Shown one piece after another: positions 2,300 to 47,214 of a stretch of DNA of 64,000 bases (position 1 is the stretch's first letter; each line of letters opens with the position of its first letter). The translations under genes were made by a program, and so were the position numbers. Location: positions 27,119-91,118 of the forward strand of contig DATDYP010000015.1 in the NCBI GenBank assembly GCA_035288985.1, given 5' to 3'. The notes under the pieces were generated by a model that was given only the letters and a program-made list of their open reading frames with translations, did not search any database and was not told the origin of the DNA. Origin of the DNA: Candidatus Nanoarchaeia archaeon (GTDB lineage Archaea; Nanobdellota; Nanobdellia; Woesearchaeales; GW2011-AR9).

Positions 2300-2998
2300 A
2301 TGGACGATGATTATGAGATGCGGCGGTTAATGAATGCAAAAAGCGACCCTATCAGAATACTATGTCTTCAGCAAAAGATAAAGACGCGCGAAGCTCTGCT
2401 TCTGTACGATAGGGGCTGGGATAGTCTTCTCTCAGCCGCTGATGAGAACATTTTTTCTGACAAAATGCATCATTTCTTACGGGCTTATGCTTCTTTTCGG
2501 CAAGCCATCAAAACAGATCCGCAGTACGCATGTCCGAAGACCGCAATTTTTCTCACGGGTGAAATCCTTACGGAATTAGGGGTTGAAATTCAGGATTTAC
2601 CGGAGGATTTAGAATATAGAGTTTCCTTGTCAGGCAATCTCAAGGGCTGTCAAGTGTTAGCAGAGTCGTGGGAATTCTTGCAAAAATTACAATCCAGAGA
2701 ACATAAGTATGAATGCTCTGCACCTTCCGATGAACCCGGTTTGTTTAGAAGGGTTAGGGATTCTGTCCGTGATCGTGTTGTAAGCTACTCTGTCGATTGG
2801 AAGCAAGATAATGGACAAATAGATGTTGTTTCCGAGATGGAGCTAGATGATTTCGGGCTACATGTTTATGTAACTAGCTCCATGATTCAAACATCAGGCG
2901 ATCAGGCTCCTCAACGGGTGGCTATGACTGTACGAGGGGAGGGAATACCACAAAAACTTGGCGGACTTTTACGTGAGTATAATTTTAGGATGGTATAA
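2300..2998 (+). CDS. Hypothetical protein (232 aa)
   Basis: Long ORF with a TATA-like GATTTATAAGA about 30 nt upstream. No recognisable motif. Confidence 0.5.
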   Translation: MDDDYEMRRLMNAKSDPIRILCLQQKIKTREALLLYDRGWDSLLSAADENIFSDKMHHFLRAYASFRQAIKTDPQYACPKTAIFLTGEILTELGVEIQDLPEDLEYRVSLSGNLKGCQVLAESWEFLQKLQSREHKYECSAPSDEPGLFRRVRDSVRDRVVSYSVDWKQDNGQIDVVSEMELDDFGLHVYVTSSMIQTSGDQAPQRVAMTVRGEGIPQKLGGLLREYNFRMV

Positions 2999-3016
2999 AT
3001 AGGGGATGTATAATCA

Positions 3017-3901
3017 TCAATTGAGAACAACTGCTGTCCTTTGTTGTAATATGGATTGAACTATTGCTTCGAGTTCCCTTCCTTGCACGATGGGTCCTGT
3101 CGGCACTATCCCCACTACGCGCCCCTGATAAGTGTCGAGGTCGATGTGGTTAGCAACCGCAAAGGAATAGCGGTGTATTCTATCAACCGTCCAAGGCCGC
3201 ATTGTTGGTTTTCCATCTTTTGTCGTGCAGTTGAATGTTACCTTCAATAGGGTCGTACTATGCGGAAGACGTTCGCTTGCTAGCTGTAGATAGGAGGTAA
3301 GATCCTGCCCCTTGTTTAGAATATCTAAGACCTTACCAACTGTTCTGTTAGCAGGAGTCCAAACTCCATTCTTTTTAACATATCCTTGACCATTTGCTTC
3401 TTGCACTTCTTCTGTGGTCAAATGGAACACGTTCTCTTTCTGACTTTTCAACTCGTTCCAAGATCCATCGGCAAGAACCAATGCACCTTGATACAACTCA
3501 CTCTCTGCAGTAAGTTCACGAAAATGTTGAGCATCAAGAACTATCAAATGGTCTCCTCCTGTACCTGTAGTAGAGCCATCTCCTGTGAAAAAATAATTAG
3601 TTTGCCATGCTGGTCTGACATCATCTGGAGCCCCCATTCTTCGCTCAAGAACATACGCAAACGAAGCTGGAACACGAGGAACGTCAACAACATTACCAAA
3701 TATATCCTCTCCACGCAATAATCTGGGCATGTTACCTTCTATTCCACCACAAAATTCTCTATGCGGTTCGTCTAAAGCTCTGAAAACTGCTCCACCGTAA
3801 TATTTTTTAAGAACCGATTTGATCATTGCATATTCTTTACCCATTTGTTCTTGGAGTAGTGTTGGTAATCGTTCACTGTGCCCTGATAATTGCAATGTCA
3901 T
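3017..3901 (-). CDS. Hypothetical protein (294 aa)
   Basis: Long uninterrupted ORF with TTTTATAAAC upstream on the minus strand. No recognisable motif. Confidence 0.5.
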   Translation of the reverse strand: MTLQLSGHSERLPTLLQEQMGKEYAMIKSVLKKYYGGAVFRALDEPHREFCGGIEGNMPRLLRGEDIFGNVVDVPRVPASFAYVLERRMGAPDDVRPAWQTNYFFTGDGSTTGTGGDHLIVLDAQHFRELTAESELYQGALVLADGSWNELKSQKENVFHLTTEEVQEANGQGYVKKNGVWTPANRTVGKVLDILNKGQDLTSYLQLASERLPHSTTLLKVTFNCTTKDGKPTMRPWTVDRIHRYSFAVANHIDLDTYQGRVVGIVPTGPIVQGRELEAIVQSILQQRTAVVLN

Positions 3902-4374
3902 TTTTGTATCTATGATTTTTTATGATTTTTGTGCAGAAAAGAGATATTGTTTATAAAATTTTCATGTTAAATGCGATAGACTATTTAAGAGCGATGCATC
4001 ATTTAAAATAAAAAAACCGGGCATAACTTTGCACGCCGCCCGGAAAAAAGGTTTTAGAGGTGTGGTGTTTGAGGTGGTGTTTCAAGTGATACTAAATCAG
4101 CCAACAAAGGCAATTCATAAGAAGGTACGTGTTTTCTATAGAGAAGAAAGACAATCTCCTCGTCAGTCAGTCCGGATACGAAGTTTTTTAACTGATCTAC
4201 CCTTTTTAACTCGCTTATCATCTTCGATCACCCAGTTTTGGAAAGGTCATGCCAGTATATAAAGAGGTTGAAGAGTTGCTCTAGAAGGGCTGTCAGTACA
4301 TAAGCTCCATAAACTTTTTAAAGGGGCCTGTAAATTTGCTACTTAAAGGTAAGATGTAGGAGGGTGGGAACTCT

Positions 4375-5082
4375 ATGTTTCGCTTGTTTTTTACACCAGG
4401 ATGGTTTAACGGATATGATTTATTGTTTGAAGGGATCAGCCTTGTCGTTGCGCTATTGATAGCCGCGTACAGCTGGAAAGTGTACCGTCTCAATAGAGAG
4501 AACAAGTTTGCTTATTTTTCACTGGCTTTCCTGCTGGTTTCAGTAAGTCTGGCTGTCAGCATCTTTGCCAGCGGCGTCTTATATTCCTTCCCAGTGCGGG
4601 AAACTGTCGCACAAGTGCTTTCTCCTGTCACAGGCGAGGGATTGCGTTACGCTGATCTGTATTACCGGATGGCCTTTTTTGCTGAAATGGCTTCCATGCT
4701 GGGCGCCTGGCTGCTGATTTTTTTAATCTCCCAAAAGCCTCGGGACAGATTAAGGAAATATTTTGAATTGAGCCAGATCGGACTATTTGTCTATTTGGTT
4801 TTGCTGATCTCCTGGGTTGCTAATTTCAGGCATGTTGTTTTTTATCTGACCAGCGCGGTCTTGTTGAGCCTGATAGTGTTGAATTACTACAAGAATTATC
4901 TTAACACTAACAGGAACAAAAATGCACGTTCAGTCATGTATGGTTTCTTCCTGATCATGGTAGGAAACCTGTTTTTCGTGTTTGTGTTCCTCAACAATAG
5001 TTTGTATGTTGCCGGACAATTGCTGGTGTTAGGGGGCTTTTTACAGCTTCTGAATACATATCGTAAAGTGGTACGAAGGTAA
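4375..5082 (+). CDS. Integral membrane protein (about 6-7 predicted TM segments)
   Basis: Alternating long hydrophobic stretches (LLFEGISLVVALLIAAY, FAYFSLAFLLVSVSLAVSIFA, LGAWLLIFLI, GLFVYLVLLISWV, and others). Confidence 0.6.
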   Translation: MFRLFFTPGWFNGYDLLFEGISLVVALLIAAYSWKVYRLNRENKFAYFSLAFLLVSVSLAVSIFASGVLYSFPVRETVAQVLSPVTGEGLRYADLYYRMAFFAEMASMLGAWLLIFLISQKPRDRLRKYFELSQIGLFVYLVLLISWVANFRHVVFYLTSAVLLSLIVLNYYKNYLNTNRNKNARSVMYGFFLIMVGNLFFVFVFLNNSLYVAGQLLVLGGFLQLLNTYRKVVRR

Positions 5083-5088
5083 ATCTAT

Positions 5089-5379
5089 ATGGGTGTACGA
5101 CGATCTCGATTGGAACTGGTCTTTGACGTACTGTTAGCTATCCAGAATAAAGGCGGGAAGATCAAGCCCACGCATCTGATGTACAAGTCAAACCTTTCTC
5201 ATAAGTTGCTGAACAGCTACCTGGAGGAGTTGCTCCTGAAGGAGTTAGTTGTGGTTGAAGAAGAGATTGTCAAGAAAAAGAAACGCGCTGCAAAAGTAGT
5301 CAAGATCACTGAGAAGGGACTGGCCTTCTTAGCTGAATTCAGAAGGATGCGAGAGTTTACCGATGCCTTTGGGTTGTGA
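5089..5379 (+). CDS. Small winged-helix DNA-binding protein (COG3432-like archaeal regulator)
   Basis: 96 aa. RLELVFDVLLAIQNKGGKIKPTHLMYKSNLSHKLLNSYLEELLLKELV...ITEKGLAFLAEF is typical of small archaeal wHTH regulators. The gene starts 7 nt after the preceding membrane-protein gene. Confidence 0.6.
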   Translation: MGVRRSRLELVFDVLLAIQNKGGKIKPTHLMYKSNLSHKLLNSYLEELLLKELVVVEEEIVKKKKRAAKVVKITEKGLAFLAEFRRMREFTDAFGL

Positions 5380-5912
5380 TGATGGGAAAAGACCAAACTC
5401 CTGATTACAGACAAACCCATTCTATGCTTATTACTATTGATGGTCAGCGGTTAGATGATCGGCTGCAAGGGAGTTCACTTACTTTTGAAGGAGCTGCTGT
5501 TGCATTTCACTCGAGGCTTGATGCTAGACTCGATCCGTTGGAGCGTTCTGGATACAAGCGCGTGTACACTGTTTATGCAAGTCCAAGTGAAAATCCTCCG
5601 CCAGCATTTGGGAATTCCATACCGTTAGATGTATTATATCACTGTTTGGGTGTTGAGGGAGTGGATGGGGAGCGTGGTGCAGATACTCTTCAATTGGTCT
5701 TTCCCAACAGTTCTCTGGTTTTTCAAGACTATAAGCGGCTCGGACTTGATGTTACTTTCCTTGGCCAAACTCCTTATATGCTCCTAGTGGAAAGAAAACC
5801 TGAAACAAATAGGCGTATCTACCATGAAGGCGAGGCATCTTTGCTACGGAAGATTGGTGTGAGTTTGAGAATTCCTAATCCTTCTAATCAGCTTCTTTCT
5901 ATAAACCATTAA
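5376..5912 (+). CDS. Hypothetical protein (178 aa)
   Basis: ORF overlaps the wHTH gene stop by 4 nt (ATGA-type coupling). No recognisable motif. Confidence 0.45.
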   Translation: MMMGKDQTPDYRQTHSMLITIDGQRLDDRLQGSSLTFEGAAVAFHSRLDARLDPLERSGYKRVYTVYASPSENPPPAFGNSIPLDVLYHCLGVEGVDGERGADTLQLVFPNSSLVFQDYKRLGLDVTFLGQTPYMLLVERKPETNRRIYHEGEASLLRKIGVSLRIPNPSNQLLSINH

Positions 5913-6417
5913 GATAGTCATCGATTGACTTTCGTGCCCGGCACAGTCTTTGTGTTGTTGCTTCTACACTAATGCCCAGAATCCTACTTATCTCTCTTGG
6001 TTTGTATCCTTCCATTGAAAGATTTAGCACTTCCAAATTGCAAGCACTAATGCTTCCTTCTGCAAAACCATCCACTAATCCTGTTAATTCTTTGTTAACA
6101 GCCTCTTGTTCCGGCGTTGGCACTCCCGAGATTATGTTCTCATCTGTTGTCTCAAGCTGTTGTTCCGGACGGTATTTCCGAAAGTAATCCATCACTTTAT
6201 GTTTTGCAATGGCGCAAATCCACCCGTACACATTTTGTACCCTGGATCCTTCAATGGATTGGAAGGCTGCTATGAACGTTTCCTGGACCAGATCTTCCGT
6301 AATATCATTATTTCTGGTTAAGCGTGAGATAAAGCTTCTAACTCTTCTATAATTCTGCGTGTAAAGATCATCAAAATTAGCCAAGCCAGCCTTTTCATAG
6401 GGATTGGATTGTTTCAT
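5899..6417 (-). CDS. ECF-type RNA polymerase sigma-70 family factor
   Basis: Region 2-like segment: DLVQETFIAAFQSI...YGWICAIAKHKVMDYFRK. Region 4 HTH-like segment: LEVLNLSMEGYKPREISRILGISVEATTQRLCRARKSI. The 172-aa length fits group-4 sigma factors. Confidence 0.75.
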   Translation of the reverse strand: MKQSNPYEKAGLANFDDLYTQNYRRVRSFISRLTRNNDITEDLVQETFIAAFQSIEGSRVQNVYGWICAIAKHKVMDYFRKYRPEQQLETTDENIISGVPTPEQEAVNKELTGLVDGFAEGSISACNLEVLNLSMEGYKPREISRILGISVEATTQRLCRARKSIDDYLNGL

Positions 6418-6446
6418 AGTCTGTTCTAGGCTTCTTTTGTTTCAGA

Positions 6447-6818
6447 TTAAGATAAAATTGTTACTTCTGGTAATTTACGAAAATCGTTATCGCAAGTGAT
6501 GAGAACTGCTGGATGTAATGCGGCACTAGCATAAATTAAAGCGTCCATGGCTCCCAATTTGTATTGCAGAGAGAGTTCTACAGCTTTATTGCTTATCTCT
6601 GCCGAGACTGGCACTATCAACATTCTCTTTTTTACAAATTCAAGTGCAGTTGTAATTTCGTTTATGTTAAATTTATCTCGTATAAGCTTTCTTTTTATTT
6701 CAAATAATGACAGGACGGAGAGATGTAAGATCTCTTTTGTCTCAAAGAGGTCTTTGTACTTGCCATGTATTAAATATTCTAACCAGACTGAAGAATCTAT
6801 AAGCTTAGAATCGGTCAT
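6447..6818 (-). CDS. vapC: PIN-domain toxin (VapC-like)
   Basis: N-terminal IDSSVWLEYL (first acidic PIN residue), C-terminal LITCDNDF, 123 aa. Overlaps the upstream antitoxin gene by 14 nt. Confidence 0.8.
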   Translation of the reverse strand: MTDSKLIDSSVWLEYLIHGKYKDLFETKEILHLSVLSLFEIKRKLIRDKFNINEITTALEFVKKRMLIVPVSAEISNKAVELSLQYKLGAMDALIYASAALHPAVLITCDNDFRKLPEVTILS

Positions 6819-7011
6819 GCTTATCTCGCAAGTCTTTCATAATCTGTTTGGAGGAATAGCCTGGACGGCTAAGATATCCAGCAAAACTTTCTTTAACAGT
6901 CGAAAAGATAATTTTTTTGATAGCTTCATCATAGGAAGCTGATTTTGTTTCTTCTTTGACTTTCTTGAGCAATTCTAAGGTGTCGTCTTGGATCTGCACG
7001 GTAGTGACCAT
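6805..7011 (-). CDS. Small antitoxin (COG1753/VapB-like) paired with the PIN toxin
   Basis: 68 aa. TVQIQDDTLELLKKVKEETKSASYDEAIKKII resembles the second antitoxin in this window (TLTITEDAYERLLKAKERDESFSEVI). Overlaps the vapC start. Confidence 0.65.
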   Translation of the reverse strand: MVTTVQIQDDTLELLKKVKEETKSASYDEAIKKIIFSTVKESFAGYLSRPGYSSKQIMKDLRDKHDRF

Positions 7012-7092
7012 GATTTATATAATTATATAGTTATATATAAATATTTCGTTCTGTTCCATCATATTTAAGTAATAATAGCATAAAATATTTCT

Positions 7093-7782
7093 GTGAAGCA
7101 AAAAACAACTGAAACCAGCAAAATAATCGTCGGCGTGGATGAAGCAGGTAGAGGGCCAGTGTTAGGGCCATTAGTCATGGCAGCGTTAGCGTTCAAAGAA
7201 GAAGATCTCAAAAAATTAGAATGGATCGGTGTTAAAGACAGCAAACTTCTCTCTCCGCAGGTGCGGGAAGAGTTATTTGAACGGATACGGGAAATTGTCC
7301 ATGATTTCCGCATCGAAGTGATTGAACCAGATGCCATCGATCTTTCCTTACGCACTGCAGAAACTAACCTGAACTGGCTGGAAGCTGAGACTTCAGCGCG
7401 GCTGGTTTCAGAACTGAATCCTGATAAAGCGATCATTGACTGTCCCAGCCCTAATCTGAAAGCCTATACAAACTATTTTTCCTCTCGGCTGAGCGAAGGC
7501 GTCAGAAAGAACGCAGAACTTGTAGTTGAGCATAAGGCAGATCTCAACTACATCGCTGTCGCTGCTGCTTCTGTGATTGCAAAAGTGATAAGGGATAGAA
7601 GCATCGACAAGATCAAAGCGGAGATCGGCATCGATTTTGGTTCTGGCTATATGTCAGATCCCAAGACGCAGGAATTCCTGCAAAAATATTACCAGCAGCA
7701 TGCTTCTCTGTTTCGCAAGAGCTGGCAGTCATACAAGAATGTTGAAGACAGCAAATTACAGAAGAAGTTAGGGGAGTTTTGA
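7093..7782 (+). CDS. rnhB: Ribonuclease HII
   Basis: VGVDEAGRGPVLGPLVMAA (DEAGRG catalytic motif), DSKLLS, HKADLNYIAVAAASVIAKVIRD. GTG start. Confidence 0.9.
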   Translation: MKQKTTETSKIIVGVDEAGRGPVLGPLVMAALAFKEEDLKKLEWIGVKDSKLLSPQVREELFERIREIVHDFRIEVIEPDAIDLSLRTAETNLNWLEAETSARLVSELNPDKAIIDCPSPNLKAYTNYFSSRLSEGVRKNAELVVEHKADLNYIAVAAASVIAKVIRDRSIDKIKAEIGIDFGSGYMSDPKTQEFLQKYYQQHASLFRKSWQSYKNVEDSKLQKKLGEF

Positions 7783-11326: not shown

Positions 11327-12124
11327 ATGGTTGTTTTTGAAGGTGTGAAAAAAAAGGAGCTGGAAAAACTCTCCTTCTCCCAAGAGAAAAGCAAGACCAT
11401 CTATGAAGACCTTCGCCTTACCCATAACGGCGTTACGCTGATATTATATACTACCGGAAAACTTCTCCTGCAAGGCAAGGCCGATGCCGTGGAAAAAGTA
11501 GCAAAGAAATTGCAGAAAGCAGGTATCGGTAAACTTGCTGCATCCGATCATTTCAGAAATGAGGCTGGCTGGGTCATCGGCACGGATGAATCGTTGAAGG
11601 GAGATACGTTTGGCGGCTTGGTTGTTGCTGCCGTGAAAGCTGATAGCAGCTTGCGTAAGAAACTCGTAGAGCTAGGCGTTGCAGACAGCAAGAAATTGTC
11701 AGATCCGGAAATATTTCCGATGGCCGAAAATATCAAAAAAATTGTCCCGTGCGAGATAAAAAGCGTCCTGCCTGAAGTGTATAACAGTTTTGGTTCAGTG
11801 ACGCATCTTTTGAACAAGCTGCATCAGGAAAGTGCCCACTACTTATCTCCAGGCAAGCATGTGGTTGATAAATATCCTGGCTGTATTGTTGGCGACATTC
11901 AGGAAGAGAAAGCTGAATCAAAATATGTGGAAGTTGCTGCCGCCTCGGTCCTGGCCAGAGCAGCAGCTCTGAAGCAGCTCGATTATCTTAGTATTGAGGC
12001 AGGGTTCCGCCTGCCCAAGGGAAGCACCCACGTTACCTGGGCCTTGCGCGAATTACAAGAAAAAAAGCTGCCGTTCAGGAAATTTGTAAAAATTGAATTT
12101 AGGAATGTTAAAGAATTTTTATGA
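11327..12124 (+). CDS. RNase HIII-like protein (TBP-like N-domain plus RNase H type 2 core)
   Basis: The N-domain GVTLILYTTGKLLLQG resembles the RNase HIII N-terminal domain. Core: GTDESLKGDTFGGLVVAAV, LGVADSKKLSD, AESKYVEVAAASVLARAA, LPKGSTHV. The first G of the DExGxG motif and the usual KAD aspartate are substituted (L and E). Confidence 0.55.
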   Translation: MVVFEGVKKKELEKLSFSQEKSKTIYEDLRLTHNGVTLILYTTGKLLLQGKADAVEKVAKKLQKAGIGKLAASDHFRNEAGWVIGTDESLKGDTFGGLVVAAVKADSSLRKKLVELGVADSKKLSDPEIFPMAENIKKIVPCEIKSVLPEVYNSFGSVTHLLNKLHQESAHYLSPGKHVVDKYPGCIVGDIQEEKAESKYVEVAAASVLARAAALKQLDYLSIEAGFRLPKGSTHVTWALRELQEKKLPFRKFVKIEFRNVKEFL

Positions 12125-37609: not shown

Positions 37610-38752
37610 CTACTTCATTTTGGTCATCAAACCAGGGAGTCCTGTTCCGAGAGGAACCGGCTGGTTAATCATGACATTTTCTACCACCGAGGTCAAATTA
37701 TCAACTTCGCCTTCCAAGGCAGCATTGATCAGGTGTTTTATGGGGGTTTCGAATGATGCCCGTGCCAGGACGCTGGCTTTTTCTTTCACTACACCGTATC
37801 TAGTGATACCTCGGACTTCTCCTGTTGCGCACATGATGTCAGCGACAAGCATGATATGCCTTATGTCAATGTTCAATCCCTGTGCTTCGATAACTCTGAA
37901 TACTTCATTAATGATCGTCTCCCGGGCTGCTTCAATGCCCAGGACAGCATGGATCTCGTAAATATCATTGCTGAAAGTTCTGATAGCATCAACTTCAGGA
38001 AGAGCAAGGATATCTTTCAAGTTAGTTCCAGACGTGAGTACGATATATTCCTCCCCCCGCCGCACCGGGAGAACCTGCTTTATCCCTTTGATGCCCAGTA
38101 TTTTAATATCCTTTATTTTCTCTTTAAGATTGTAAAGGTCTTTGATATCCTCAGCTTTCCCTTTTTTGGTGAAGAGGATCTCTTCGTCACTGCTTTGGAT
38201 GGTGAAGCCCTTAGCTTTGGTCTTGACGAATTTAACCAGCTCCTTTCCTGGCAGGTTATAGTCGTCTAATACTGCTTTGTTAAGCTTTACTTTCAGCACC
38301 TGATCAAAAATATTTAGTGAATATTCAGAAACAAGCTCTCCCAGAACAGTTTCCTTGATCTTTGTGGCAAACTGCTTGACGTTTTCGATGGAGTTGTGAG
38401 TGCTTTTCAAAAAGATTTCCATCATCGGCGTTTTAAGCTCCTTCCGCGCGTCAAAGATCTCAATAATCCTCGGCAGACCGGTAGTGACGTTCATCTCAGC
38501 AACTCCGGCAAAGTGGAAGGTGTTAAGCGTCATCTGCGTGCCAGGTTCGCCGATACTTTCTGCGCTTACCAGCCCGACACATTCGCCAGGGCTTATCTTT
38601 GTAGAGTTATAGGTAGCAACAATCGTTTCCATAACTTTGGAAAGATCCGATTTTGAGATGCCGCTAGGAAGGTGTCTTTTGACTTCTTCGCGTATTGAAT
38701 CTGGAAGGATGTGCGCATAGCTGTCAATTACTGCTTCATGTTCTGCTTTCAT
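37610..38752 (-). CDS. rpoA2: DNA-directed RNA polymerase subunit A''
   Basis: [64 protein letters not shown]-like block, FETP. Confidence 0.9.
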
Positions 38753-38835
38753 TGTATTCCCCCGGAATGATTGAAAATCTGATAGATTTTCATTGTATTC
38801 CTCCAGAATGCTTGAAAATCTTTATAGATTTTCAT
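38749..38835 (-). repeat. Tandem 42/41-nt duplication of the rpoA'-rpoA'' junction, forming a 28-codon mini-ORF coupled at both ends by ATGA overlaps
   Basis: The minus strand reads GGAGGGGAACAATGAAA / ...GGAGGAATACAATGAAA / ...GGGGGAATACAATGAAAGCAGAA. The mini-ORF is [28 protein letters not shown]. Its ATG overlaps the rpoA' TGA (38832-38835) and its TGA overlaps the rpoA'' ATG (38749-38752). Confidence 0.7.
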
Positions 38836-41405
38836 TGTTCCCCTCCGGTCATTTGTTCAATAATCTCTTTTACGTCGATGACGCCGTTTTTGGTTTTGGA
38901 AACATCCAATGAGTCTTCTCCATAGGAGAACTGAACTATTTTCCCACTGGCGTCCCGGACAGAGTTGTCATAGGCAACTTTAAGATCCTGCATGGCGTTT
39001 GATAATCTTCGGTACAGGTATCCTGATTTCGGCGTCCGTAAGGCCGTGTCCATCAGTGCATCCCTTCCAGTCATGGCGCCGAAGAAGAATTCACTCGGCG
39101 TCAGCCCGCTCTTAAAATTATTCCTGATAAACCCTCTCGACTTGGGGCTTAGATCATTTTTCTTGAAGTACGATAAAGTTCTTTCCTTGAACCCGGTTTC
39201 GATTCGCTTTCCCCGCAAGGCTTGTTGGCCTACTACTGCAGTCATCTGCGCGATGTTAAGGGGATTTCCTCTCGATCCGCATTTTGCCATCGTCAAGGCT
39301 GTGCTTTCACGAACCTGGCGTATGGCGATGTCGCCGCTTTTGTTTCGCGCTTTATTTAGAACTTCTAAGATTCGCAGTTCCAGTGTTTCTGCCATGGTTC
39401 TTCCTGGGAGGATTTCTAATTTTCCGGCATAAAAATCATCAATCAACTTTAGCGCGTCTTCCTCTGCTTTCCTGATAATGGCATCAATCTCTTCCCGCGT
39501 CTCTTCAGCAAGATCAAGGTCTCTCACACCTATGGAAAAACCGCGCCGCGCCAGGACAGCAATTCCCAGCTTGGAAATCTTGCCTAAAAGGTCTGCGGTG
39601 TAGGCAGGACCGTATTTCTCATACATATTTCGCAGCATCAGACCGCTTTCCTGGCCTAGATTTGCTTTATCCATCAAACCGGTCTTTAGGATTCCATTTA
39701 CAATTTTGACTTCGTTACTGCTCTTATCCTTGCCGGTGAAGGTGAAGTCTTTTGGCAGCAATACAGAAAATACTCTCTTCCCGTCAATCTTATCTTTGTC
39801 AGGCAAAGAGGAGAAATCTTCCACGCCGCAACTGTACAGCAAGTCTACAGCTTCATTCCTGCTTAATACCAATTCTTTGGTCAGCAAATAATTTCCAGTG
39901 ATAGCATCATGGATGCAGCCGACCACGCTTAAGCCGTAACGCGGGCTGATGATCTGTGTTTCTACCAGCATCAAAATCTTTGCTTCTGCCCGGGCTTCTT
40001 CATTTTGTGGGATATGGAGATTCATCTCGTCACCGTCAAAGTCAGCGTTGTAGGGGTTGCAGACAGATGGATTGAGGCGGAAGGTCTTGCCGGGTAAAAC
40101 TTTGACCAGATGGCACATCATGCTCATCCTGTGCAAGGACGGCTGCCTGTTGAAAAGAGCAATATCACCATCAACAAGATGCCTGTCGACAATATACCCT
40201 TCTTCAAGCTCTTCCAGGATCTCTTCTTTGGTTTCTTCTGTGATCGTTTTTCTTCGTCCATTAGGCTTGATAACATAATTAGCACCAGGATACTTCTTAG
40301 GGCCATTCTCTACGATCTTGCGGAGATGTTGCTTATTCCATTCGGTAACCCGTTCTGGAACAGTAAGGTGCATGGCCATGCTTAGAGGCACTCCTACGCC
40401 ATTGAGGGAGATTAATGGATCCGGACTGATGACGGTCCTGGCTGAGAAGTCCGTCCTTTTACCAGCAAGATTATGCCGGATACGCCCTTCTTTGCTCTTG
40501 ATACGTTCGGTCAGCGTTTTCAACGGCTGTCCGCCCCTGTGCCGGGCCGGCGGTAGTTGTGAAACAGAATTGTCAAAGAACGTCGTAATATGATACTGAA
40601 GCAGATCCCAGAGGTCTTCAATGATAACTTCCGGTGCTCCTGCATTGATGTTTTCGAAAAGGCGCTGGTTGATCCTGACAATGTCTCCGAGCTTGTGGGT
40701 CAGATCATCTTCGCTTCTTTCTCCAGATTCCAGAGTAATGCTCGGCCTCATCGTTACCGGAGGGATCAGCATCGTGGTAATCACCATCCATTCCGGCCGG
40801 ATCTGTCCTGGAGTGTATCCAAACATGATCAGGTCCTCGTCGGGGATCTTTTCAAGGCGTGCCCGCACTTCAATCGGGCTTAATCTAATCTCTCCTTCAT
40901 AGAAGTTGTAAGGCTTCTCGATCCTGATTTTTTCCTGCTTGGTGTCACAGTGAGGACACTTGTCTTTTGTTTTATACCTCGTGATGATCTCTTTGATCCT
41001 TCTTCTCTTTGCTTCGAAATCATCTTCTGCATCAATCTTAGCCAGCATTGCGCTGTAGCTTTTGATTTTATTATCAGGGATGACTACTCTGCCGCATGAT
41101 TTACAGCTGGAGCGGAGGATATCTAAAATTTGACGGACAAAATTAATATGCACTACTGGCCGGGCTAGTTCAATGTAGCCAAAATGCCCAGGGCATTCTT
41201 TCAGTTTCTGGCCGCAGGTCTTACATCGTAAGCCAGGATCAATAACACCGAGGCGAAGGTCCATCAATCCTCCGTCAACTGGGTATCCTTCCCGGTCGTA
41301 CAGCTCTGGAGTTACAATTTTTGCCGCTGCAGAATCGGTCATCTGTTTTGGTGAAAACAAACCGAAAGAGATACTTTTGATTTTTTTGTGTATGCTATGG
41401 ATCAT
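38832..41405 (-). CDS. rpoA1: DNA-directed RNA polymerase subunit A'
   Basis: Zn motifs CKTCGQKLKECPGHFG and CKSCG, catalytic NADFDGDEMNLH, RQPSLHRMSMM, bridge-helix region. Confidence 0.95.
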   Translation of the reverse strand: MIHSIHKKIKSISFGLFSPKQMTDSAAAKIVTPELYDREGYPVDGGLMDLRLGVIDPGLRCKTCGQKLKECPGHFGYIELARPVVHINFVRQILDILRSSCKSCGRVVIPDNKIKSYSAMLAKIDAEDDFEAKRRRIKEIITRYKTKDKCPHCDTKQEKIRIEKPYNFYEGEIRLSPIEVRARLEKIPDEDLIMFGYTPGQIRPEWMVITTMLIPPVTMRPSITLESGERSEDDLTHKLGDIVRINQRLFENINAGAPEVIIEDLWDLLQYHITTFFDNSVSQLPPARHRGGQPLKTLTERIKSKEGRIRHNLAGKRTDFSARTVISPDPLISLNGVGVPLSMAMHLTVPERVTEWNKQHLRKIVENGPKKYPGANYVIKPNGRRKTITEETKEEILEELEEGYIVDRHLVDGDIALFNRQPSLHRMSMMCHLVKVLPGKTFRLNPSVCNPYNADFDGDEMNLHIPQNEEARAEAKILMLVETQIISPRYGLSVVGCIHDAITGNYLLTKELVLSRNEAVDLLYSCGVEDFSSLPDKDKIDGKRVFSVLLPKDFTFTGKDKSSNEVKIVNGILKTGLMDKANLGQESGLMLRNMYEKYGPAYTADLLGKISKLGIAVLARRGFSIGVRDLDLAEETREEIDAIIRKAEEDALKLIDDFYAGKLEILPGRTMAETLELRILEVLNKARNKSGDIAIRQVRESTALTMAKCGSRGNPLNIAQMTAVVGQQALRGKRIETGFKERTLSYFKKNDLSPKSRGFIRNNFKSGLTPSEFFFGAMTGRDALMDTALRTPKSGYLYRRLSNAMQDLKVAYDNSVRDASGKIVQFSYGEDSLDVSKTKNGVIDVKEIIEQMTGGEQ

Positions 41406-41415
41406 GGTTCGTGCC

Positions 41416-43221
41416 TCAATATTTGCTCTCCAAATTCAGTTTTGCGTAGATTCCTAAAGTTCTTATTTCATCCAGCAGAAGCTTGAAGGCGTAACTCATC
41501 TCTACATTGGACATGTCTGAAGTATCTCCATAGAGCGGTGAGATTGCTCTTCCGTTCTTCCGCTCGTCATAGTATCCCATCAATCCAGACTTCTCGCAGA
41601 CCGGCACGGTGGTCCTGTCGGAATCAAACCGTTCTTTGAGGAGGAGTGTGGCTCCATGGGCGATAAAGGTGTCTTTCTCCATCTCTCCCAGCCGAAGCCC
41701 TCCTTCCTTAGCCTTTCCTTCTGTTGGCTGTCGGGTTAACAACTGGATCGGTCCTCTGGCTCTGGATTGCATCTTGTTTGCAACCATATGGCGGAGGCGC
41801 AAATAATACATATTTCCAACGAAAATCTTAGCCAGCATCCGCTTACCGGTCCTTCCATCGTAGAAAACTTCCGTTCCGTCTTCTCTGAATCCGCCTTCCA
41901 ATAATTCCTTCCGCAGCATTTCTTCCTGTTCTCCTTCAAATAAGGTTCCGTCAACAAATCTTCCTGCCAGCGCTCCAACTTTTCCGCCGACTAATTCAAT
42001 CAGGTGGGAAACGGTCATCCTTGAAGAGACCCCATGCGGAGTGAAAATCAAATCTGGAATGATCCCTTTTTCTGAAAATGGTAAATCCTGCGCAGGAACC
42101 AAAATTCCAGTAACTCCTTTCTGCCCATGCCGAGAGGTGAACTTATCGCCGATCTCAGGAATCCGTTCTTCACGCAGCCGCACTTGAACCAGCTTATTCC
42201 CTTCTTCGTTCTCTGTGAGGATAACAAAGTCAGCCACTCCATTTTCACCGTGCTTCAGGCTGAGGGAACTTTCCCGGCGGATTCCAGCAGAGAGGTTATA
42301 TTCATCCATGCTGCTCAGGAAACGCGGCGGGCTGGTCCTGCCGATGACAACATCTCCTTCCTTAACATTTGCTTCAGGATGGATGATTCCATCGCCTTCC
42401 AGGAAGCGGTAATCATGCTCACTTCTATACCCTTTTACATCTTTGTCAGGAACGGAAATTTCGTCGATCAATCCGCCAGAGTAGCGTAGTTCTTGGGCTT
42501 CGACCGGCCTGAAATAGGTGCTTCGCGCCAGTCCGCGTTCTACTGATGCTTTCCCAAGTATGACTCCGTCTTCCATGTTGTAGCCATCATAACACATCAC
42601 TGCTACGATCATATTCTGTCCAGAAGGATGTTCATCATAATCGGTGATAGTATGAATTTTTGTCTTGACGATCGGGAACTGAGGGTAATGAAGGATATTT
42701 GAATCCATGTCCATACGCAGGTGGTAATTTGCTGCGTAAAAGCCAAGAGCCTGTTTCTGGTTCTTGCTTCCGATGATCAGACGTTGCGAGGGCATGAAAT
42801 TACCGAATGGCACCAGCGAGGTCGCGATCCCGCAGATCGATCCCTGCGTGATTTCCATGTGGGTGTGGTTTGGTGTGATCTGCTCCTCATTATAAGCAAC
42901 CAGGGCATTTTCCTCTTCGCTGGCATCAAGGTACTCGATGACTCCCTGCCTGACCAAATCAACCCAGGTGATTTCACCTTCTGCCAATTGTTTGACGTGC
43001 TTCTCTGTCAGCAAAGACTTGCTTTCCTTGACGATGATCAGCGGCCGGCGTGCTCTTCCTTCGTCGCTGCTGACGTGAATCTCTTTTGCGGCTTCGTCAG
43101 AATATACATTGATCTCTTCTGATAAAGAACCTTTACGGCGGAGATCCTTGATCTCTTCTACAAAGTGCCTGGCATCTTCCACAGTTCCGATAAATCTTGA
43201 ATTTAAGTATACTTCTGTCAT
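41416..43221 (-). CDS. rpoB1: DNA-directed RNA polymerase subunit B' (C-terminal part of split B)
   Basis: GDKFTSRHGQKGV, PDLIFTPHGVSSRMTVSHLIE, LRHMVANKMQSRARGP, GGLRLGEMEKD. Confidence 0.95.
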   Translation of the reverse strand: MTEVYLNSRFIGTVEDARHFVEEIKDLRRKGSLSEEINVYSDEAAKEIHVSSDEGRARRPLIIVKESKSLLTEKHVKQLAEGEITWVDLVRQGVIEYLDASEEENALVAYNEEQITPNHTHMEITQGSICGIATSLVPFGNFMPSQRLIIGSKNQKQALGFYAANYHLRMDMDSNILHYPQFPIVKTKIHTITDYDEHPSGQNMIVAVMCYDGYNMEDGVILGKASVERGLARSTYFRPVEAQELRYSGGLIDEISVPDKDVKGYRSEHDYRFLEGDGIIHPEANVKEGDVVIGRTSPPRFLSSMDEYNLSAGIRRESSLSLKHGENGVADFVILTENEEGNKLVQVRLREERIPEIGDKFTSRHGQKGVTGILVPAQDLPFSEKGIIPDLIFTPHGVSSRMTVSHLIELVGGKVGALAGRFVDGTLFEGEQEEMLRKELLEGGFREDGTEVFYDGRTGKRMLAKIFVGNMYYLRLRHMVANKMQSRARGPIQLLTRQPTEGKAKEGGLRLGEMEKDTFIAHGATLLLKERFDSDRTTVPVCEKSGLMGYYDERKNGRAISPLYGDTSDMSNVEMSYAFKLLLDEIRTLGIYAKLNLESKY

Positions 43222-43225
43222 TTTC

Positions 43226-44698
43226 TTACGCTGATTCTTTCAGGCCTATATTTTTTAATTTATCCAGGACAGCTTCATCTTCAACATTTTGTGAGATCGA
43301 ACAAAGCATGGCCAAATTCTTTCTGAGTCCAATATTTGTACCTTCCGGCGTTTCAATTGGACATAATCTGCCGACATGAGTACAGTGTAATGCACGGGCG
43401 TCGAAATTCTCCTGCGACGTTGACAAAGGACTGGCTACTCTCTGCAGGTGCGAGACCATGTCTAGGAAATTAGTCCTGCTCATCCTCTGCGAGACTCCCT
43501 GCCTGCCGCCGACCCATTCTCCCGTAGCCATGGAAGAATATAAACGTGAGGTGAGGAGCTTTCCCCTGATGATGACTCGGATTGAAGGCAGCTTCCCTCT
43601 CTTGATAATCCGCTGAAAGTTATAAAGTATGTCTCCTACCAGGATCTTAAAATTAACTCGGAATAGATCTATGAGCAAGTCCCCGCTCATCCGCAACCGT
43701 TTATTCATGTAGTGGTCTTTGTCATCTGCAGGGCGTGCGCCGCTGCTGATGTCAATAAATTTTTTCAGCATCTTGCAGATATTTACAGCTTTCGTACGCC
43801 GCGCAGGTGTTTCCACGCCGATATTAGGAAGCAGATACTTATTAAGAATCTCTTTGGTGCGTTCCATCCGGATATCTTTTGGCTGCGTCACGCCGATTCT
43901 CTTGCCGATATAATCAATGGCATCATCTTGTGTTTTCACTTCAACAAATTCAAAGAGGTTAAGGATGATCTCTTCATAATTCTTTTCCATAGAGATTGAT
44001 TTCATGATCTCTTCGTCTTTAACCAGGCCGAGGGCCTTGAGAACTATGATGATCGGCATGCTTTTGACGCGGGTGAAACTCATGTAGTAAATTCCATCCT
44101 TCTTCCGCTCAAAGGTGTGCGGGATCTTGTACGATCCTTTGGTCGCAAAGAACCGGCCATTGAATCCGGAAGCTCCTTTCTCGACCATAAAATTGTTGCC
44201 GGCCAGATCTTCAACAGTGACAATCAGTTTTTCCGTGCCATTGATGATGAAATACCCGCCTGGATCGCTGGGATCTTCGCCATGTTTGATAAGATCATCC
44301 CTGCTCAACCCGCTGAGATGGCAGAACTTGCTCCGCAGCATGATAGGCATCTTTCCAATTTCGGCGACGAAATTCTCTCTTTGGATATCATTAACATAGG
44401 TGCTGATCTCTAAATTTATTGGCGCGGAGTATGAAATCTTTCGCAGTCTTGCTTCAACAGGATAAATTGCCCTCTTACTTCCGTCAGCTTCAGTGATCTC
44501 TGGTTTCCCGACGGTGAGTCTGCCAAAACGGATCTTAAACTTTTCAATGTTATGCGGGATGATGGTCGGTTCTGCTTCCTTGTTTTCTTCGATGACTTCC
44601 TGCAGGCCTTTCTCCATCAGGTTATTGAATGACTGGATATTGCTCTCCACAAACTTTTTCTCTTCAAAATACTTTTTGATAAGGACTGATCTATCCAT
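43226..44698 (-). CDS. rpoB2: DNA-directed RNA polymerase subunit B'' (N-terminal part of split B)
   Basis: GGYFIINGTEKLIV, DDKDHYMNKRLRMSGDL, CPIETPEGTNIGL. Start moved to ATG 44698 (MDRSVLIKKYF), giving an 8-nt overlap with the rpoH stop rather than an 80-nt overlap. Confidence 0.9.
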   Translation of the reverse strand: MDRSVLIKKYFEEKKFVESNIQSFNNLMEKGLQEVIEENKEAEPTIIPHNIEKFKIRFGRLTVGKPEITEADGSKRAIYPVEARLRKISYSAPINLEISTYVNDIQRENFVAEIGKMPIMLRSKFCHLSGLSRDDLIKHGEDPSDPGGYFIINGTEKLIVTVEDLAGNNFMVEKGASGFNGRFFATKGSYKIPHTFERKKDGIYYMSFTRVKSMPIIIVLKALGLVKDEEIMKSISMEKNYEEIILNLFEFVEVKTQDDAIDYIGKRIGVTQPKDIRMERTKEILNKYLLPNIGVETPARRTKAVNICKMLKKFIDISSGARPADDKDHYMNKRLRMSGDLLIDLFRVNFKILVGDILYNFQRIIKRGKLPSIRVIIRGKLLTSRLYSSMATGEWVGGRQGVSQRMSRTNFLDMVSHLQRVASPLSTSQENFDARALHCTHVGRLCPIETPEGTNIGLRKNLAMLCSISQNVEDEAVLDKLKNIGLKESA

Positions 44699-44993
44699 CA
44701 GACTCACTCTCCTCAGGCTCTTCGCTTCTGGACATCGCACTGGTCCGCTGTGCTTTCGCGCTGTCGACAACTGCCCGGTAATATGCTGTTCTCCCGGCTG
44801 TTTTGCTTTGCCTTTCTATTTTCACAAGATCGCCTACTTTTAGGCTGAGATGCATGATTGCAGGATCGTCTTTCATGATTTTTGGCAGGGCTTTAGAATC
44901 GATATTATATTTTTTGAACAGAGATTCTTTCTCTGCGTCGCTTGCTTTAAGGTGCTTGTTAACCAGTTGATGGGTGTCTACCTTGAATGCCAT
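44691..44993 (-). CDS. rpoH: DNA-directed RNA polymerase subunit H (Rpb5-like)
   Basis: THQLVNKHLKASDAEKESLFKKYNI...LPKIMKDDPA...GDLVKIERQSKTAGRTAYYRAV. First gene of the rpo operon. Carries an acidic C-terminal tail. Confidence 0.8.
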   Translation of the reverse strand: MAFKVDTHQLVNKHLKASDAEKESLFKKYNIDSKALPKIMKDDPAIMHLSLKVGDLVKIERQSKTAGRTAYYRAVVDSAKAQRTSAMSRSEEPEESESDG

Positions 44994-45031
44994 TTTGTTT
45001 TGTACCTGTTTTGTACTTTCTTGAGCATGAG

Positions 45032-45119
45032 CGGGCCGGAAGGGATTTGAACCCTCGACCGCTTGATGTCCTTCAGCTTGCTAAAAGTCAAGCGCTCTAC
45101 CAAGCTAAGCTACCGGCCC
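45032..45119 (-). tRNA. tRNA-Lys(UUU) with one 14-nt intron at 37/38
   Basis: Acceptor GGGCCGG/CCGGCCC. D arm GCTT-AGCTTGGTA-GAGC. Anticodon stem CTTGA/TCAAG. Loop CTTTTA[intron 45068-45081]A. T arm GAGGG-TTCAAAT-CCCTT. Discriminator G, no encoded CCA. Confidence 0.85.
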
Positions 45120-47057: not shown

Positions 47058-47153
47058 GCGGTAGTAGTATAGTGGTTAGTATACGGCCTTGCCAGAGATT
47101 TTGTAAAAGTCTGTAATGAGGCTGTGACCGGGGTTCGACTCCCCGCTACCGCA
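47058..47153 (+). tRNA. tRNA-Gly(GCC) with one 24-nt intron at 37/38
   Basis: Acceptor GCGGTAG/CTACCGC. D arm GTAT-AGTGGTTA-GTAT. Anticodon stem CGGCC/GGCTG. Loop TTGCCA[intron 47095-47118]A. T arm CGGGG-TTCGACT-CCCCG. Discriminator A. T-run after the 3' end. Confidence 0.85.
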
Positions 47154-47214
47154 TTTTTACTCATAGCATGACTGTAAAGAAATAATTATATACCCCTTCT
47201 CTTTTATTATTCTC

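What the first reader, a model, noticed from the sequence alone, without database searches (positions are those of the whole stretch)
5899..6417. Bacterial-type ECF sigma-70 factor encoded in an archaeal genome context
Seen in sequence: The 172-aa ORF has recognisable sigma region 2 (DLVQETFIAAF...YGWICAIAKHKVMDYFRK) and region 4 HTH (PREISRILGISVEATTQRLCRARKSI). Established knowledge: archaeal RNA polymerase, encoded in this same window in its split A'/A''/B'/B'' form, initiates with TBP/TFB and does not use sigma factors. Sigma-70 proteins bind bacterial core beta'/beta. Inference: the gene is probably a horizontal acquisition from a bacterium. It sits in a block of unrecognisable ORFs (2300-6417) together with a wHTH regulator. 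Its function could be exapted, could target a bacterial host or partner polymerase, or could be absent. A chimeric assembly is the trivial alternative.
Basis: partly seen in the sequence, partly recalled or inferred. Interest (0 to 1): 0.6.

Follow-up and report, generated by a model that had tools for sequence, protein, structure and literature searches.

The report
ECF-type sigma factor in Woesearchaeota
A tiny groundwater archaeon (Woesearchaeota, DPANN) carries an intact, long-resident gene for a bacterial-style ECF sigma factor although it has no bacterial RNA polymerase. Sigma genes in these archaea have been reported before, and their function is still unknown.

Summary
Window 5899-6417(-) encodes a 172-aa ECF (group 4) sigma-70 protein. 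It passes the curated cut-offs of Pfam Sigma70_r2 and r4_2 and of TIGR02937. Its AF2 model is sigma2-linker-sigma4, and its best PDB matches are ECF sigmas.

It is not a chimera. Ten contigs from eight samples give the same join, and its composition is host-like. A 49%-identical ortholog sits in the same slot of a related organism.

The host is a ~1 Mb Woesearchaeales genome with split archaeal RNAP, TBP and TFB. No bacterial beta subunit marker was found (0 of 41 genomes), and no zf-HC2 anti-sigma.

Sigma70_r2 genes occur in 162 of 401 genomes of the phylum, including RpoD-like ones. Castelle et al. 2021 already reported this. From my memory, so did Rinke et al. 2013.

What this report adds:
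- The gene is an accessory insert in a variable slot between two core genes.
- A recently mobile vapBC cassette lies 20 nt upstream of it, so it is probably transcribed from the vapB archaeal TATA promoter.
- It keeps the sigma2.2 and DNA-reading residues but has lost conserved region-4.1 residues.

Best reading: a domesticated DNA-binding regulator. The mechanism is unproven.

The parts
5899..6417 (-). ECF-type (group 4) sigma-70 family gene, 172 aa
   Evidence: The start codon is supported by the conserved N-terminus (NPYEKAG) in four orthologs.
6154..6375 (-). Sigma2 domain (residues 15-88). Keeps DLVQETF (region 2.1/2.2), W66, I70, A71, D77 and R80.
   Evidence: Pfam Sigma70_r2 on residues 18-83; helices H15-34, H37-57 and H63-88; conservation.
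6115..6153 (-). Flexible sigma2-sigma4 linker (residues 89-101). There is no sigma3 domain.
   Evidence: pLDDT is below 50 at residues 89-97. No Sigma70_r3 match in the own genome.
5905..6114 (-). Sigma4 domain (residues 102-171) with the HTH. The recognition-helix arginines R160 and R162 are kept. The region-4.1 'LP' motif and L132 are lost.
   Evidence: Pfam Sigma70_r4_2 on residues 129-164; helices H102-122, H125-135, H140-147 and H151-171; column comparison with 33 bacterial ECFs.
6447..6818 (-). vapC (PIN-domain toxin), 29 nt upstream of the sigma on the same strand
   Evidence: Pfam PIN 65 bits. 96-97% aa identical to copies in other genera.
6805..7011 (-). vapB antitoxin, overlapping vapC by 14 nt
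   Evidence: Weak VAPB_antitox match. 97-98.5% aa identical to copies in other genera.
7034..7041 (-). Canonical archaeal TATA box (TTTATATA) starting 30 nt upstream of the vapB ATG. It is the probable promoter of a leaderless vapB-vapC-sigma transcript.
   Evidence: Sequence. Genome-wide, TATA-like motifs peak at -32 to -28 from start codons.
6437..7158 (.). Mobile vapBC cassette. It is 91-93% nt identical to cassettes in genus g61, against about 76% for the flanking core DNA. Its end lies 20 nt upstream of the sigma ATG.
   Evidence: blastn.
5376..5912 (+). orf178, an unknown variable gene. Its 3' end overlaps the sigma's 3' end by 14 nt (convergent).
   Evidence: no family hit. Absent from L124. 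Weak similarity to other fillers of the slot, E 0.016.
5089..5379 (+). HTH_45 / Sso10a-family winged-helix gene. This is a core gene, not part of the insert.
   Evidence: Pfam 63 bits and NCBIfam Sso10a_fam 53.9 bits, which is below that model's curated cut-off of 60. 84-93% identical across the family.
4375..5082 (+). 235-aa polytopic membrane protein (DUF6962-like). This is a core gene.
   Evidence: Present in 104 of 114 family genomes.
37610..44770 (-). Context: split archaeal RNA polymerase genes rpoB''-B'-A'-A''
   Evidence: Pfam Rpb1/Rpb2 domains. The nearest named relatives of A'' are Woesearchaeota/Nanoarchaeota.

Best explanation
The gene encodes a real, intact ECF-type sigma-70 family protein of bacterial ancestry. 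It has long been resident in a Woesearchaeales (DPANN) lineage as an accessory gene.

Shown:
- It lies in a variable slot between two core genes, the HTH_45 wHTH gene and RNase HII.
- It was already in that slot before this organism and the L124 organism diverged.
- It has evolved fast but under purifying selection.
- It has host-like codon usage.

Inferred from sequence:
- It is expressed by the archaeal machinery. Its orthologs and its paralog carry a TATA box 27-32 nt upstream of the ATG.
- In this genome a recently arrived vapBC cassette sits 20 nt upstream of the ATG. The sigma is therefore most likely the third gene of a leaderless vapB-vapC-sigma transcript, driven by the vapB TATA box and under VapBC autoregulation.

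Inferred mechanism:
- No bacterial core polymerase and no anti-sigma factor is encoded. It therefore cannot act as a classical sigma in its own cell.
- I think it most likely acts inside the archaeal cell as a sequence-specific DNA-binding transcription regulator. It would use its retained sigma4 HTH, and possibly its sigma2 domain.
- Its amount would be set by transcription, not by an anti-sigma.
For: Identity.

Not an artefact:
- The identical gene with the same neighbours on both sides appears on 10 listed contigs from 8 samples (ENA, JGI, Logan), 99.9-100% identical to the window.
- The sigma, the wHTH and RpoA' each report a longest contig of 154,039 bp.
- GC z-score is -0.46, GC3 z-score is -0.65, and the codon score is at the 73rd percentile of the genome.

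Archaeal host:
- Split RNAP, TFB and TBP.
- RpoA'' is 72-77% identical to Woesearchaeota/Nanoarchaeota proteins.
- The bacterial beta-specific domain PF10385 is above cut-off in 0 of 41 genomes, against 10 of 10 control bacteria.
- zf-HC2 is above cut-off in 0 of 41 genomes.

Retention:
- Ortholog P0009 (49% identity) sits in the same slot in L124. Its flanks are 57-93% identical.
- pN is 0.335 against a saturated pS of 0.745.
- The residues invariant among the four orthologs are the classical sigma2 and sigma4 motif residues.

Lineage-wide: Sigma70_r2 is above cut-off in 26 of 41 relatives (matched in 27) and in 162 of 401 genomes of the phylum. RpoD-like copies carrying r3 occur in 16 of 41.

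Expression signals:
- The genome's dominant promoter signal is a TATA box at -32 to -28.
- vapB has TTTATA exactly at -30.
- Orthologs and the paralog have a TATA box at -27 to -32.
- The vapBC cassette boundary is at window position 6437.
Against: - No expression, protein or binding data exist.
- The gene is the fastest-evolving of the syntenic genes: dN 0.44 against 0.05-0.39 for its neighbours.
- Orthologs are rare. Only 3 proteins reach E<=1e-30 among 1.8 billion representatives, and 15 of 114 family genomes have any hit at E<=1e-5.
- The G087 copy carries a frameshift.
- The sigma's own upstream region has no canonical TATA box and no SD-like motif, so it could be poorly expressed here.
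- Free ECF sigmas are not generally known to bind duplex promoters well without core. This is established knowledge, not tested here.
- Strict retention of the core-binding helix DLxQETF is not explained by a stand-alone HTH role.
Confidence: 0.5

Rival explanations
1. The protein is a true polymerase-binding factor of the archaeal RNAP. Sigma2 would dock on the Rpo1N (A') clamp coiled-coil, the homolog of the beta' clamp helices. The protein would then direct or modulate initiation at a small regulon, possibly competing with TFE or Spt4/5.
For: The sigma2.2 helix (D42 L43 Q45 T47 F48), W66 and R80 are invariant in all four orthologs at 40-56% overall identity. The only known role of region 2.2 is binding the clamp coiled-coil (established knowledge). 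RpoD-like relatives in the same family keep the full 'DLIQEGNxGL...YKFSTYATWWIRQ' box. Conserved region-4.1 residues, which in bacteria face the beta flap, are lost. That fits a polymerase without a flap-tip helix.
Against: In an ungapped alignment, the three E. coli beta' clamp-helix residues I recall as critical for sigma binding (R275, E295, A302) align to I, L and H in this organism's A' (the residue list is from memory). No position-specific upstream motif other than the TATA box and an SD-like motif exists in the genome. The sigma2.2 helix is also part of the domain's hydrophobic core, so its conservation may be structural. No complex model or experiment was possible.
Confidence: 0.12
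2. The gene is a functionless or nearly neutral passenger of the flexible gene pool. It is carried along in a variable slot and is slowly decaying.
For: It lies in an insertion hot spot that is empty or filled differently in most relatives. It is the fastest-evolving syntenic gene. Its distribution is patchy. The G087 copy has a frameshift. The vapBC insertion cut it off from its own promoter. It deviates at N73 and at the region-4.1 LP motif.
Against: The frame is intact in the window, in L124, in L127 and in P0002, although synonymous sites are saturated. pN/pS is below 0.5, with dS at least 3.7. The changes avoid the motif residues. Codon usage is fully adapted. The G087 frameshift lies in an A-run and may be an assembly error.
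Confidence: 0.2
3. The sigma is made for a bacterial partner or prey. It would be delivered into a bacterium and would redirect that cell's core RNAP.
For: All parts needed to bind a bacterial core and promoter look intact. DPANN archaea are generally thought to be symbionts (abstract of PMC8204110).
Against: The sequence has no signal peptide or hydrophobic segment. No secretion-related neighbour was found. The known DPANN hosts are archaea (my own knowledge). Conserved sigma4.1 residues that contact the beta flap are lost.
Confidence: 0.04
4. The gene is an assembly chimera or bacterial contamination of the bin.
For: None found.
Against: Independent assemblies give identical joins on both sides. 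There is a syntenic ortholog in another organism. Composition is host-like. Bin contamination is 0.3%. Castelle et al. also ruled out mis-binning for this gene family.
Confidence: 0.01

Closest known systems
Sigma-70 family genes of DPANN archaea (fam00359 of Castelle et al. 2021, Front Microbiol 12:660052, PMC8204110). From my own memory, also 'complete sigma factors in Archaea' in Rinke et al. 2013, Nature 499:431.
   Same: A sigma-70 family gene inside real Woesearchaeota chromosomal context. Mis-binning is excluded, no anti-sigma factor is found, and TBP and TFB are present (and here).
   Different: This copy is of the short ECF (group 4) type, not RpoD-like. The paper gives no loci, orthogroups or promoters. 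Those are added here: the variable slot, the vapBC operon, the syntenic ortholog and the relaxed region 4.1.
Bacterial ECF sigma factors with solved structures: M. tuberculosis SigE, SigL and SigH; E. coli sigmaE; P. aeruginosa AlgU; B. subtilis SigW
   Same: The sigma2-linker-sigma4 architecture, the motifs DLxQETF and W..IA...D..R, and the sigma4 HTH with conserved arginines. Sequence E-value 6.7e-12 to SigE and Foldseek probability 1.00.
   Different: Only 20-27% identity. No bacterial core RNAP in the cell. No anti-sigma gene. Archaeal TATA promoters in place of an autoregulated -35/-10 promoter. The nearly invariant N73 and the region-4.1 LP motif are replaced. It reaches no NCBIfam subfamily or equivalog cut-off.
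RpoD-like (group 1-3) sigma genes of the same Woesearchaeales family (for example L013, L016, L017)
   Same: The same lineage and the same puzzle: a sigma without a bacterial polymerase. Sigma2 and sigma4 signatures are retained.
   Different: Those genes are 380-730 aa, with region 3 and long N-terminal extensions. The own genome (79% complete) shows none of them, only two ECF-type genes.

Membership tests
ECF (group 4) sigma-70 family | Sigma2 domain (regions 2.1-2.4) | tested here: met
   Pfam Sigma70_r2 55.3 bits against a cut-off of 24. Three helices at residues 15-88.
ECF (group 4) sigma-70 family | Sigma4 domain (regions 4.1-4.2) with HTH | tested here: met
   Sigma70_r4_2 27.4 bits against 25.7, which is marginal. 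TIGR02937 over the whole length 66.7 bits against 42.9. Four helices at residues 102-171.
ECF (group 4) sigma-70 family | No region 1.1 and no sigma3 domain; short protein | tested here: met
   172 aa. The linker is disordered. No Sigma70_r3 match in the own genome.
ECF (group 4) sigma-70 family | Fold like solved ECF sigmas | tested here: met
   The 28 best Foldseek PDB matches are nearly all ECF sigmas, at probability 1.00. Whole-chain TM is only about 0.4 because the two domains are oriented differently.
ECF (group 4) sigma-70 family | Binds bacterial core RNAP (beta' clamp helices, beta flap) | not testable with these tools
   No bacterial beta marker in the own genome or in 40 relatives. 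Conserved region-4.1 residues are replaced.
ECF (group 4) sigma-70 family | Cognate anti-sigma factor encoded next to it (common, not universal) | tested here: not met
   No co-directional downstream gene. zf-HC2 is above cut-off in 0 of 41 genomes. The neighbours have no anti-sigma family hit.
ECF (group 4) sigma-70 family | Autoregulated ECF-type -35/-10 promoter | tested here: inconclusive
   The upstream regions of the orthologs show only archaeal TATA boxes at -27 to -32. No other positional motif exists genome-wide. A small regulon could escape this test.
A defined ECF subgroup (NCBIfam subfamily or equivalog models) | Score above a subgroup's curated cut-off | tested here: not met
   The best subgroup scores are 59-64 bits against cut-offs of 126-212. 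In the tree it forms its own clade with three orthologs (SH-aLRT 93) and has no resolved bacterial sister.
DPANN sigma-70 genes (Castelle 2021) | Sigma-70 family gene flanked by taxonomically informative archaeal genes in a DPANN genome | tested here: met

The most novel reading that the evidence does not exclude
Archaea of this lineage use bacterial-derived sigma factors with their own archaeal RNA polymerase. The ECF-type protein would dock through its conserved sigma2.2 helix on the A' clamp coiled-coil. Having shed the flap-binding residues of region 4.1, it would recruit or redirect the polymerase to a small stress regulon. In this genome that regulon would be switched on together with the vapBC toxin-antitoxin module. 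This would be a sigma-dependent mode of initiation or regulation in the archaeal domain.
Probability: 0.1. Interest if true: 0.9.

Novelty: new member of a known kind. Interest (0 to 1): 0.33.

Why it matters
Sigma factors and the TBP/TFB system are textbook markers that separate bacterial from archaeal transcription. About 40% of genomes in a whole archaeal phylum keep sigma genes without a bacterial polymerase, and this is unexplained.

This locus gives a compact test case. The protein is small (172 aa) and easy to express. It has a syntenic ortholog for comparison and a defined operon context.

It also gives a specific pattern of kept and lost residues: sigma2.2 and the DNA-reading residues are kept, and region 4.1 is relaxed. 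That pattern predicts which interaction partners survived.

Because the occurrence is already published, and this scan has met many such genes, the value is incremental unless the function is tested.

Tried and rejected
Mis-assembly was judged only from independent assemblies, and expression not at all.
- Donor search: the genome-contig scan returned only generic bacterial ECFs at 25-36% identity from many phyla. No donor was found.
- Phylogeny: the backbone is unresolved. An AU test that forces all 16 Woesearchaeal ECF-like proteins into one clade gives p 0.495. A single origin is therefore neither rejected nor shown.
- Virus or defence-island reading of the block: PHROGs gives only the generic sigma family plus unknown-function families for the wHTH and PIN genes. 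PADLOC gives nothing. Rejected.
- wHTH plus membrane gene as functional partners of the sigma: rejected. They are core genes, present in 104 of 114 genomes, mostly without a sigma next to them.
- orf178 as an anti-sigma: no family hit, and it is not conserved in the ortholog's locus. It has only weak similarity to other fillers of the slot.
- ECF-type promoter search by positional 5-mer enrichment: only the TATA box, an SD-like motif and a weak BRE-like signal were found.
- The conserved leader upstream of the membrane gene as a structured RNA: z-score +1.3, so not supported.
- Literature: Rinke et al. 2013 is not held. The Castelle supplements that are held do not contain fam00359. The ECF re-classification paper does not mention archaea.

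Full report
**Observation**

- It passes Pfam Sigma70_r2 (55.3 bits, cut-off 24) and Sigma70_r4_2 (27.4 bits, cut-off 25.7).
- It passes NCBIfam TIGR02937 sigma70-ECF (66.7 bits, cut-off 42.9). It reaches no subfamily or equivalog cut-off.
- By sequence, the nearest solved protein is M. tuberculosis ECF SigE (E 6.7e-12, residues 8-169), followed by E. coli sigmaE, SigL, CnrH, SigH and SigW.
- An AF2 model built on a 37-row alignment has mean pLDDT 87.3. It shows a three-helix sigma2 (residues 15-88), a disordered linker (89-101) and a four-helix sigma4 (102-171).
- Its 28 best Foldseek matches in the PDB are nearly all ECF sigma factors, at probability 1.00.
- There is no region 1.1 and no region 3.

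**Host and context**

The window carries the split archaeal polymerase genes B'', B', A' and A'' (37610-44770, minus strand), NusA-KH, S12, S7, a family-B DNA polymerase and SMC.
- The assembly is 989 kb in 32 contigs, 79% complete, with 0.3% contamination.
- RpoA'' is 72-77% identical to proteins named Woesearchaeota, Nanoarchaeota or archaeon GW2011_AR9.
- The genome has one TFB and one TBP.
- The bacterial beta-specific domain PF10385 is above cut-off in none of the own genome and 40 relatives. It is above cut-off in all ten control bacteria.
- The zf-HC2 anti-sigma domain is likewise above cut-off in 0 of 41 genomes.

**Not an artefact**

- The identical protein is on 14 contigs. The ten shown come from eight samples (five ENA assemblies, one JGI metagenome, two Logan runs), all with the same neighbours on both sides.
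- These contigs are 99.9-100% identical to the window, so they represent one population assembled independently.
- The sigma, the wHTH and RpoA' each report a longest contig of 154,039 bp.
- Gene GC (z -0.46), GC3 (z -0.65) and synonymous codon score (73rd percentile of 858 ORFs) are ordinary for this genome.

**Relatives of the protein**

- Among 1.8 billion representative proteins, only three reach E<=1e-30: the protein itself, P0009 (49% identity) and P0010 (41%). Everything else is at E>=1e-14.
- P0002 (56% identity) is on a 951-bp contig.
- A scan of 185,579 species genomes found only bacterial ECFs at 25-36% identity. They come from Bacteroidota, Acidobacteriota, Actinomycetota, Bacillota and other phyla. 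No donor can be named.
- In a tree of 127 ECFs, the window protein groups with P0002, P0009 and P0010 (SH-aLRT 93) on a long stem, without a resolved sister.
- Forcing all 16 Woesearchaeal ECF-like proteins into one clade costs no likelihood (p-AU 0.495). One origin is therefore neither shown nor excluded.

**Vertical retention**

- P0009 lies in L124 (JGI 3300025150) in the same place and orientation. The order there is PolB ... HIT, HIT, RNase HII, DUF2238, RNase HII, [slot with sigma], HTH_45, 235-aa membrane protein ... AP_endonuc_2.
- The flanking proteins are 57-93% identical. The sigma is 49% identical.
- Synonymous sites are saturated everywhere (pS 0.75-0.86).
- The sigma has pN 0.335 (dN 0.44). 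Its neighbours have pN 0.045-0.31.
- It is therefore the fastest-evolving gene of the stretch, but it is clearly under purifying selection.
- The residues invariant among the four orthologs are the classical ones: D42, L43, Q45, T47 and F48 (region 2.1/2.2), W66, I70, A71, D77 and R80 (2.3/2.4), E142, R160 and R162 (4.2).
- Of 21 positions that are at least 75% conserved in 33 bacterial ECFs, the orthogroup departs at five. These are A40, N73 (now H/H/C/Y), the 'LP' at 122-123 and L132. The last three lie in region 4.1, which in bacteria helps hold the beta flap (established knowledge).

**Lineage-wide picture**

- The own genome has a second ECF-type gene on contig C25 (202 aa, P0017) and no Sigma70_r3 match.
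- Sigma70_r2 is matched in 27 of 41 relatives of the family and order (26 above cut-off), and is above cut-off in 162 of 401 genomes (145 of 281 genera matched) of the phylum.
- Many of these are full RpoD-like proteins of 380-730 aa. They carry 'YKFSTYATWWIRQ', 'IRIPVH' and a region 4.2 signature. Region 3 is above cut-off in 16 of 41.
- This is the phenomenon published by Castelle et al. 2021: sigma-70 genes prevalent in Woesearchaeota, mis-binning excluded, no anti-sigma found, mechanism unclear.
- From my own memory, it was also announced by Rinke et al. 2013. That paper is not held.
- The ECF re-classification paper does not mention archaea.
- Earlier notes of this scan describe at least eight such RpoD-like cases with the same conclusion. 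They are leads, not independent evidence.

**Anatomy of the locus**

- The 235-aa membrane gene is a core gene, present in 104 of 114 family genomes.
- The backbone AP_endonuc_2, membrane protein, HTH_45, [slot], RNase HII, DUF2238 is conserved.
- The slot is nearly empty (124-490 nt) in G018, G091, G124, G125, G119 and G092.
- It holds other unknown genes in G088, G093 and G098.
- It holds vapBC in G083, G085 and G087.
- It holds the sigma only in the window and in L124.
- The vapBC cassette (window 6437-7158) is 91-93% identical in DNA to the copies in genus g61. The adjacent core DNA is about 76% identical. The cassette has therefore moved recently.
- The cassette's end lies 20 nt upstream of the sigma ATG.
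- Two other orthologs (L127 and G087:C127) lie in a different context, convergent with a 150-aa coiled-coil/wHTH gene. L127 also has a serine recombinase 1.3 kb away.
- In the own genome, the homologs of those flanks are on C18 and C24, without a sigma.

The gene thus belongs to the flexible gene pool of the lineage.

**Expression signals**

- Genome-wide, TATA-like hexamers peak sharply at -32 to -28 from start codons (326 in that range, over 848 upstream regions).
- An SD-like GGAGGTG peaks at -15 to -8. No other positional signal exists.
- vapB has TTTATA exactly at -30.
- The orthologs in L124, L127 and G087 and the paralog on C25 have TATA boxes at -27 to -32.
- The window's sigma has only TTTTATCTTAAT at -40 to -29. 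That sequence is the end of vapC. There is no SD-like motif.
- The simplest reading is a vapB-vapC-sigma transcript. The sigma's former promoter was displaced by the cassette.

**Mechanism**

What is shown:
- An intact, selected ECF-type protein.
- An archaeal host without a bacterial core polymerase and without an anti-sigma.
- Archaeal promoters.

What is inferred:
- Its activity. I favour a regulator that works inside the archaeal cell by sequence-specific DNA binding (confidence 0.5).
- The alternative is docking on the archaeal clamp coiled-coil. The strict retention of the sigma2.2 helix and the loss of flap-facing residues support it.
- Against it, the three beta' residues I recall as critical for sigma binding (R275, E295, A302) align to I, L and H in this A'. 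No sigma-type promoter motif was found either. I give this alternative 0.1-0.12.
- The other readings are neutral passenger (0.2), a factor aimed at a bacterial partner (0.04) and chimera (0.01).

**Verdict**

This is a real and cleanly documented ECF-type member of an already published class of archaeal sigma genes. It is a new member of a known kind, of moderate interest. It would make a convenient small test object for an open question.

Noticed in passing
window 6437-7158; L138, L139, L145: The vapBC cassette is 91-93% nt (96-98.5% aa) identical between this genome and three genomes of another genus. The flanking core genes are about 76% nt (70-86% aa) identical. This looks like a toxin-antitoxin cassette that has spread recently within Woesearchaeales and always landed in the same slot.
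   Followed up: partly
window 5380-7092 and the equivalent region in L133-L145: The interval between the core HTH_45 gene and RNase HII is an insertion hot spot. It is 124-490 nt and empty in six genomes. Elsewhere it holds unknown genes, vapBC, a LAGLIDADG/TrmB-like gene, or the sigma.
   Followed up: yes
G000 contig C25:50075-51230 (L011:1447-2600); also L034, L037, L038, L041: The genome's second ECF-type sigma (202 aa) overlaps by 4 nt a Methyltransf_3 O-methyltransferase (182 aa, 68 bits). The same sigma-methyltransferase pair recurs in four other genomes of the family, which makes it a conserved two-gene unit. Lipobox-bearing proteins flank it.
   Followed up: partly
L014 (G019:C39:17762-20959): One open frame of 1552 aa holds three separate Sigma70_r2 matches. 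The part that was read shows two sigma-like modules in tandem, one degenerate and one RpoD-like. Other relatives have RpoD-like modules behind N-terminal extensions of 200-490 aa.
   Followed up: no
L033 (G087:C127:899-1464): The ortholog in G087 is split by a one-base frameshift in or next to a GAAAAAAG run. This is either a pseudogene or a homopolymer assembly error.
   Followed up: partly
window 4054-4221(-) and 4222-4374: A 55-aa ORF is conserved at protein level with L124 (50% identity, E 4e-16). The roughly 150 nt upstream of the membrane gene are unusually conserved in DNA (blocks TATATAAAGAGGTTGAA, CTCCATAAACTTTTTAAA, GGAGGGTGGGAACT), although synonymous sites are saturated. No stable RNA fold was found (z +1.3) and there is no Rfam hit.
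   Followed up: partly
L127:5874-6671 and G000:C18:9448-10254: A serine recombinase (Resolvase plus Recombinase domains) is 95% identical between the two organisms, while its neighbours are 79-83% identical. In L127 it lies 1.3 kb from the sigma ortholog. This may mark a mobile element.
   Followed up: no
L124:6113-7825: A 354-aa LAGLIDADG/TrmB-like ORF ends with the N-terminal motif of RNase HII (KIIVGVDE.G). The adjacent RNase HII gene lacks that N-terminus. This could be an intein-like insertion or a fusion in RNase HII.
   Followed up: no
window 45031-45119(-) and 47058-47154(+): Two long tRNA genes of 87-96 nt. ARAGORN cannot name the anticodon of the first one. They probably contain introns.
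   Followed up: no
window 7093-7782 and 11327-12124: Two RNase HII paralogs (229 and 265 aa) lie within 5 kb of each other. Both are conserved in the related locus L124.
   Followed up: no
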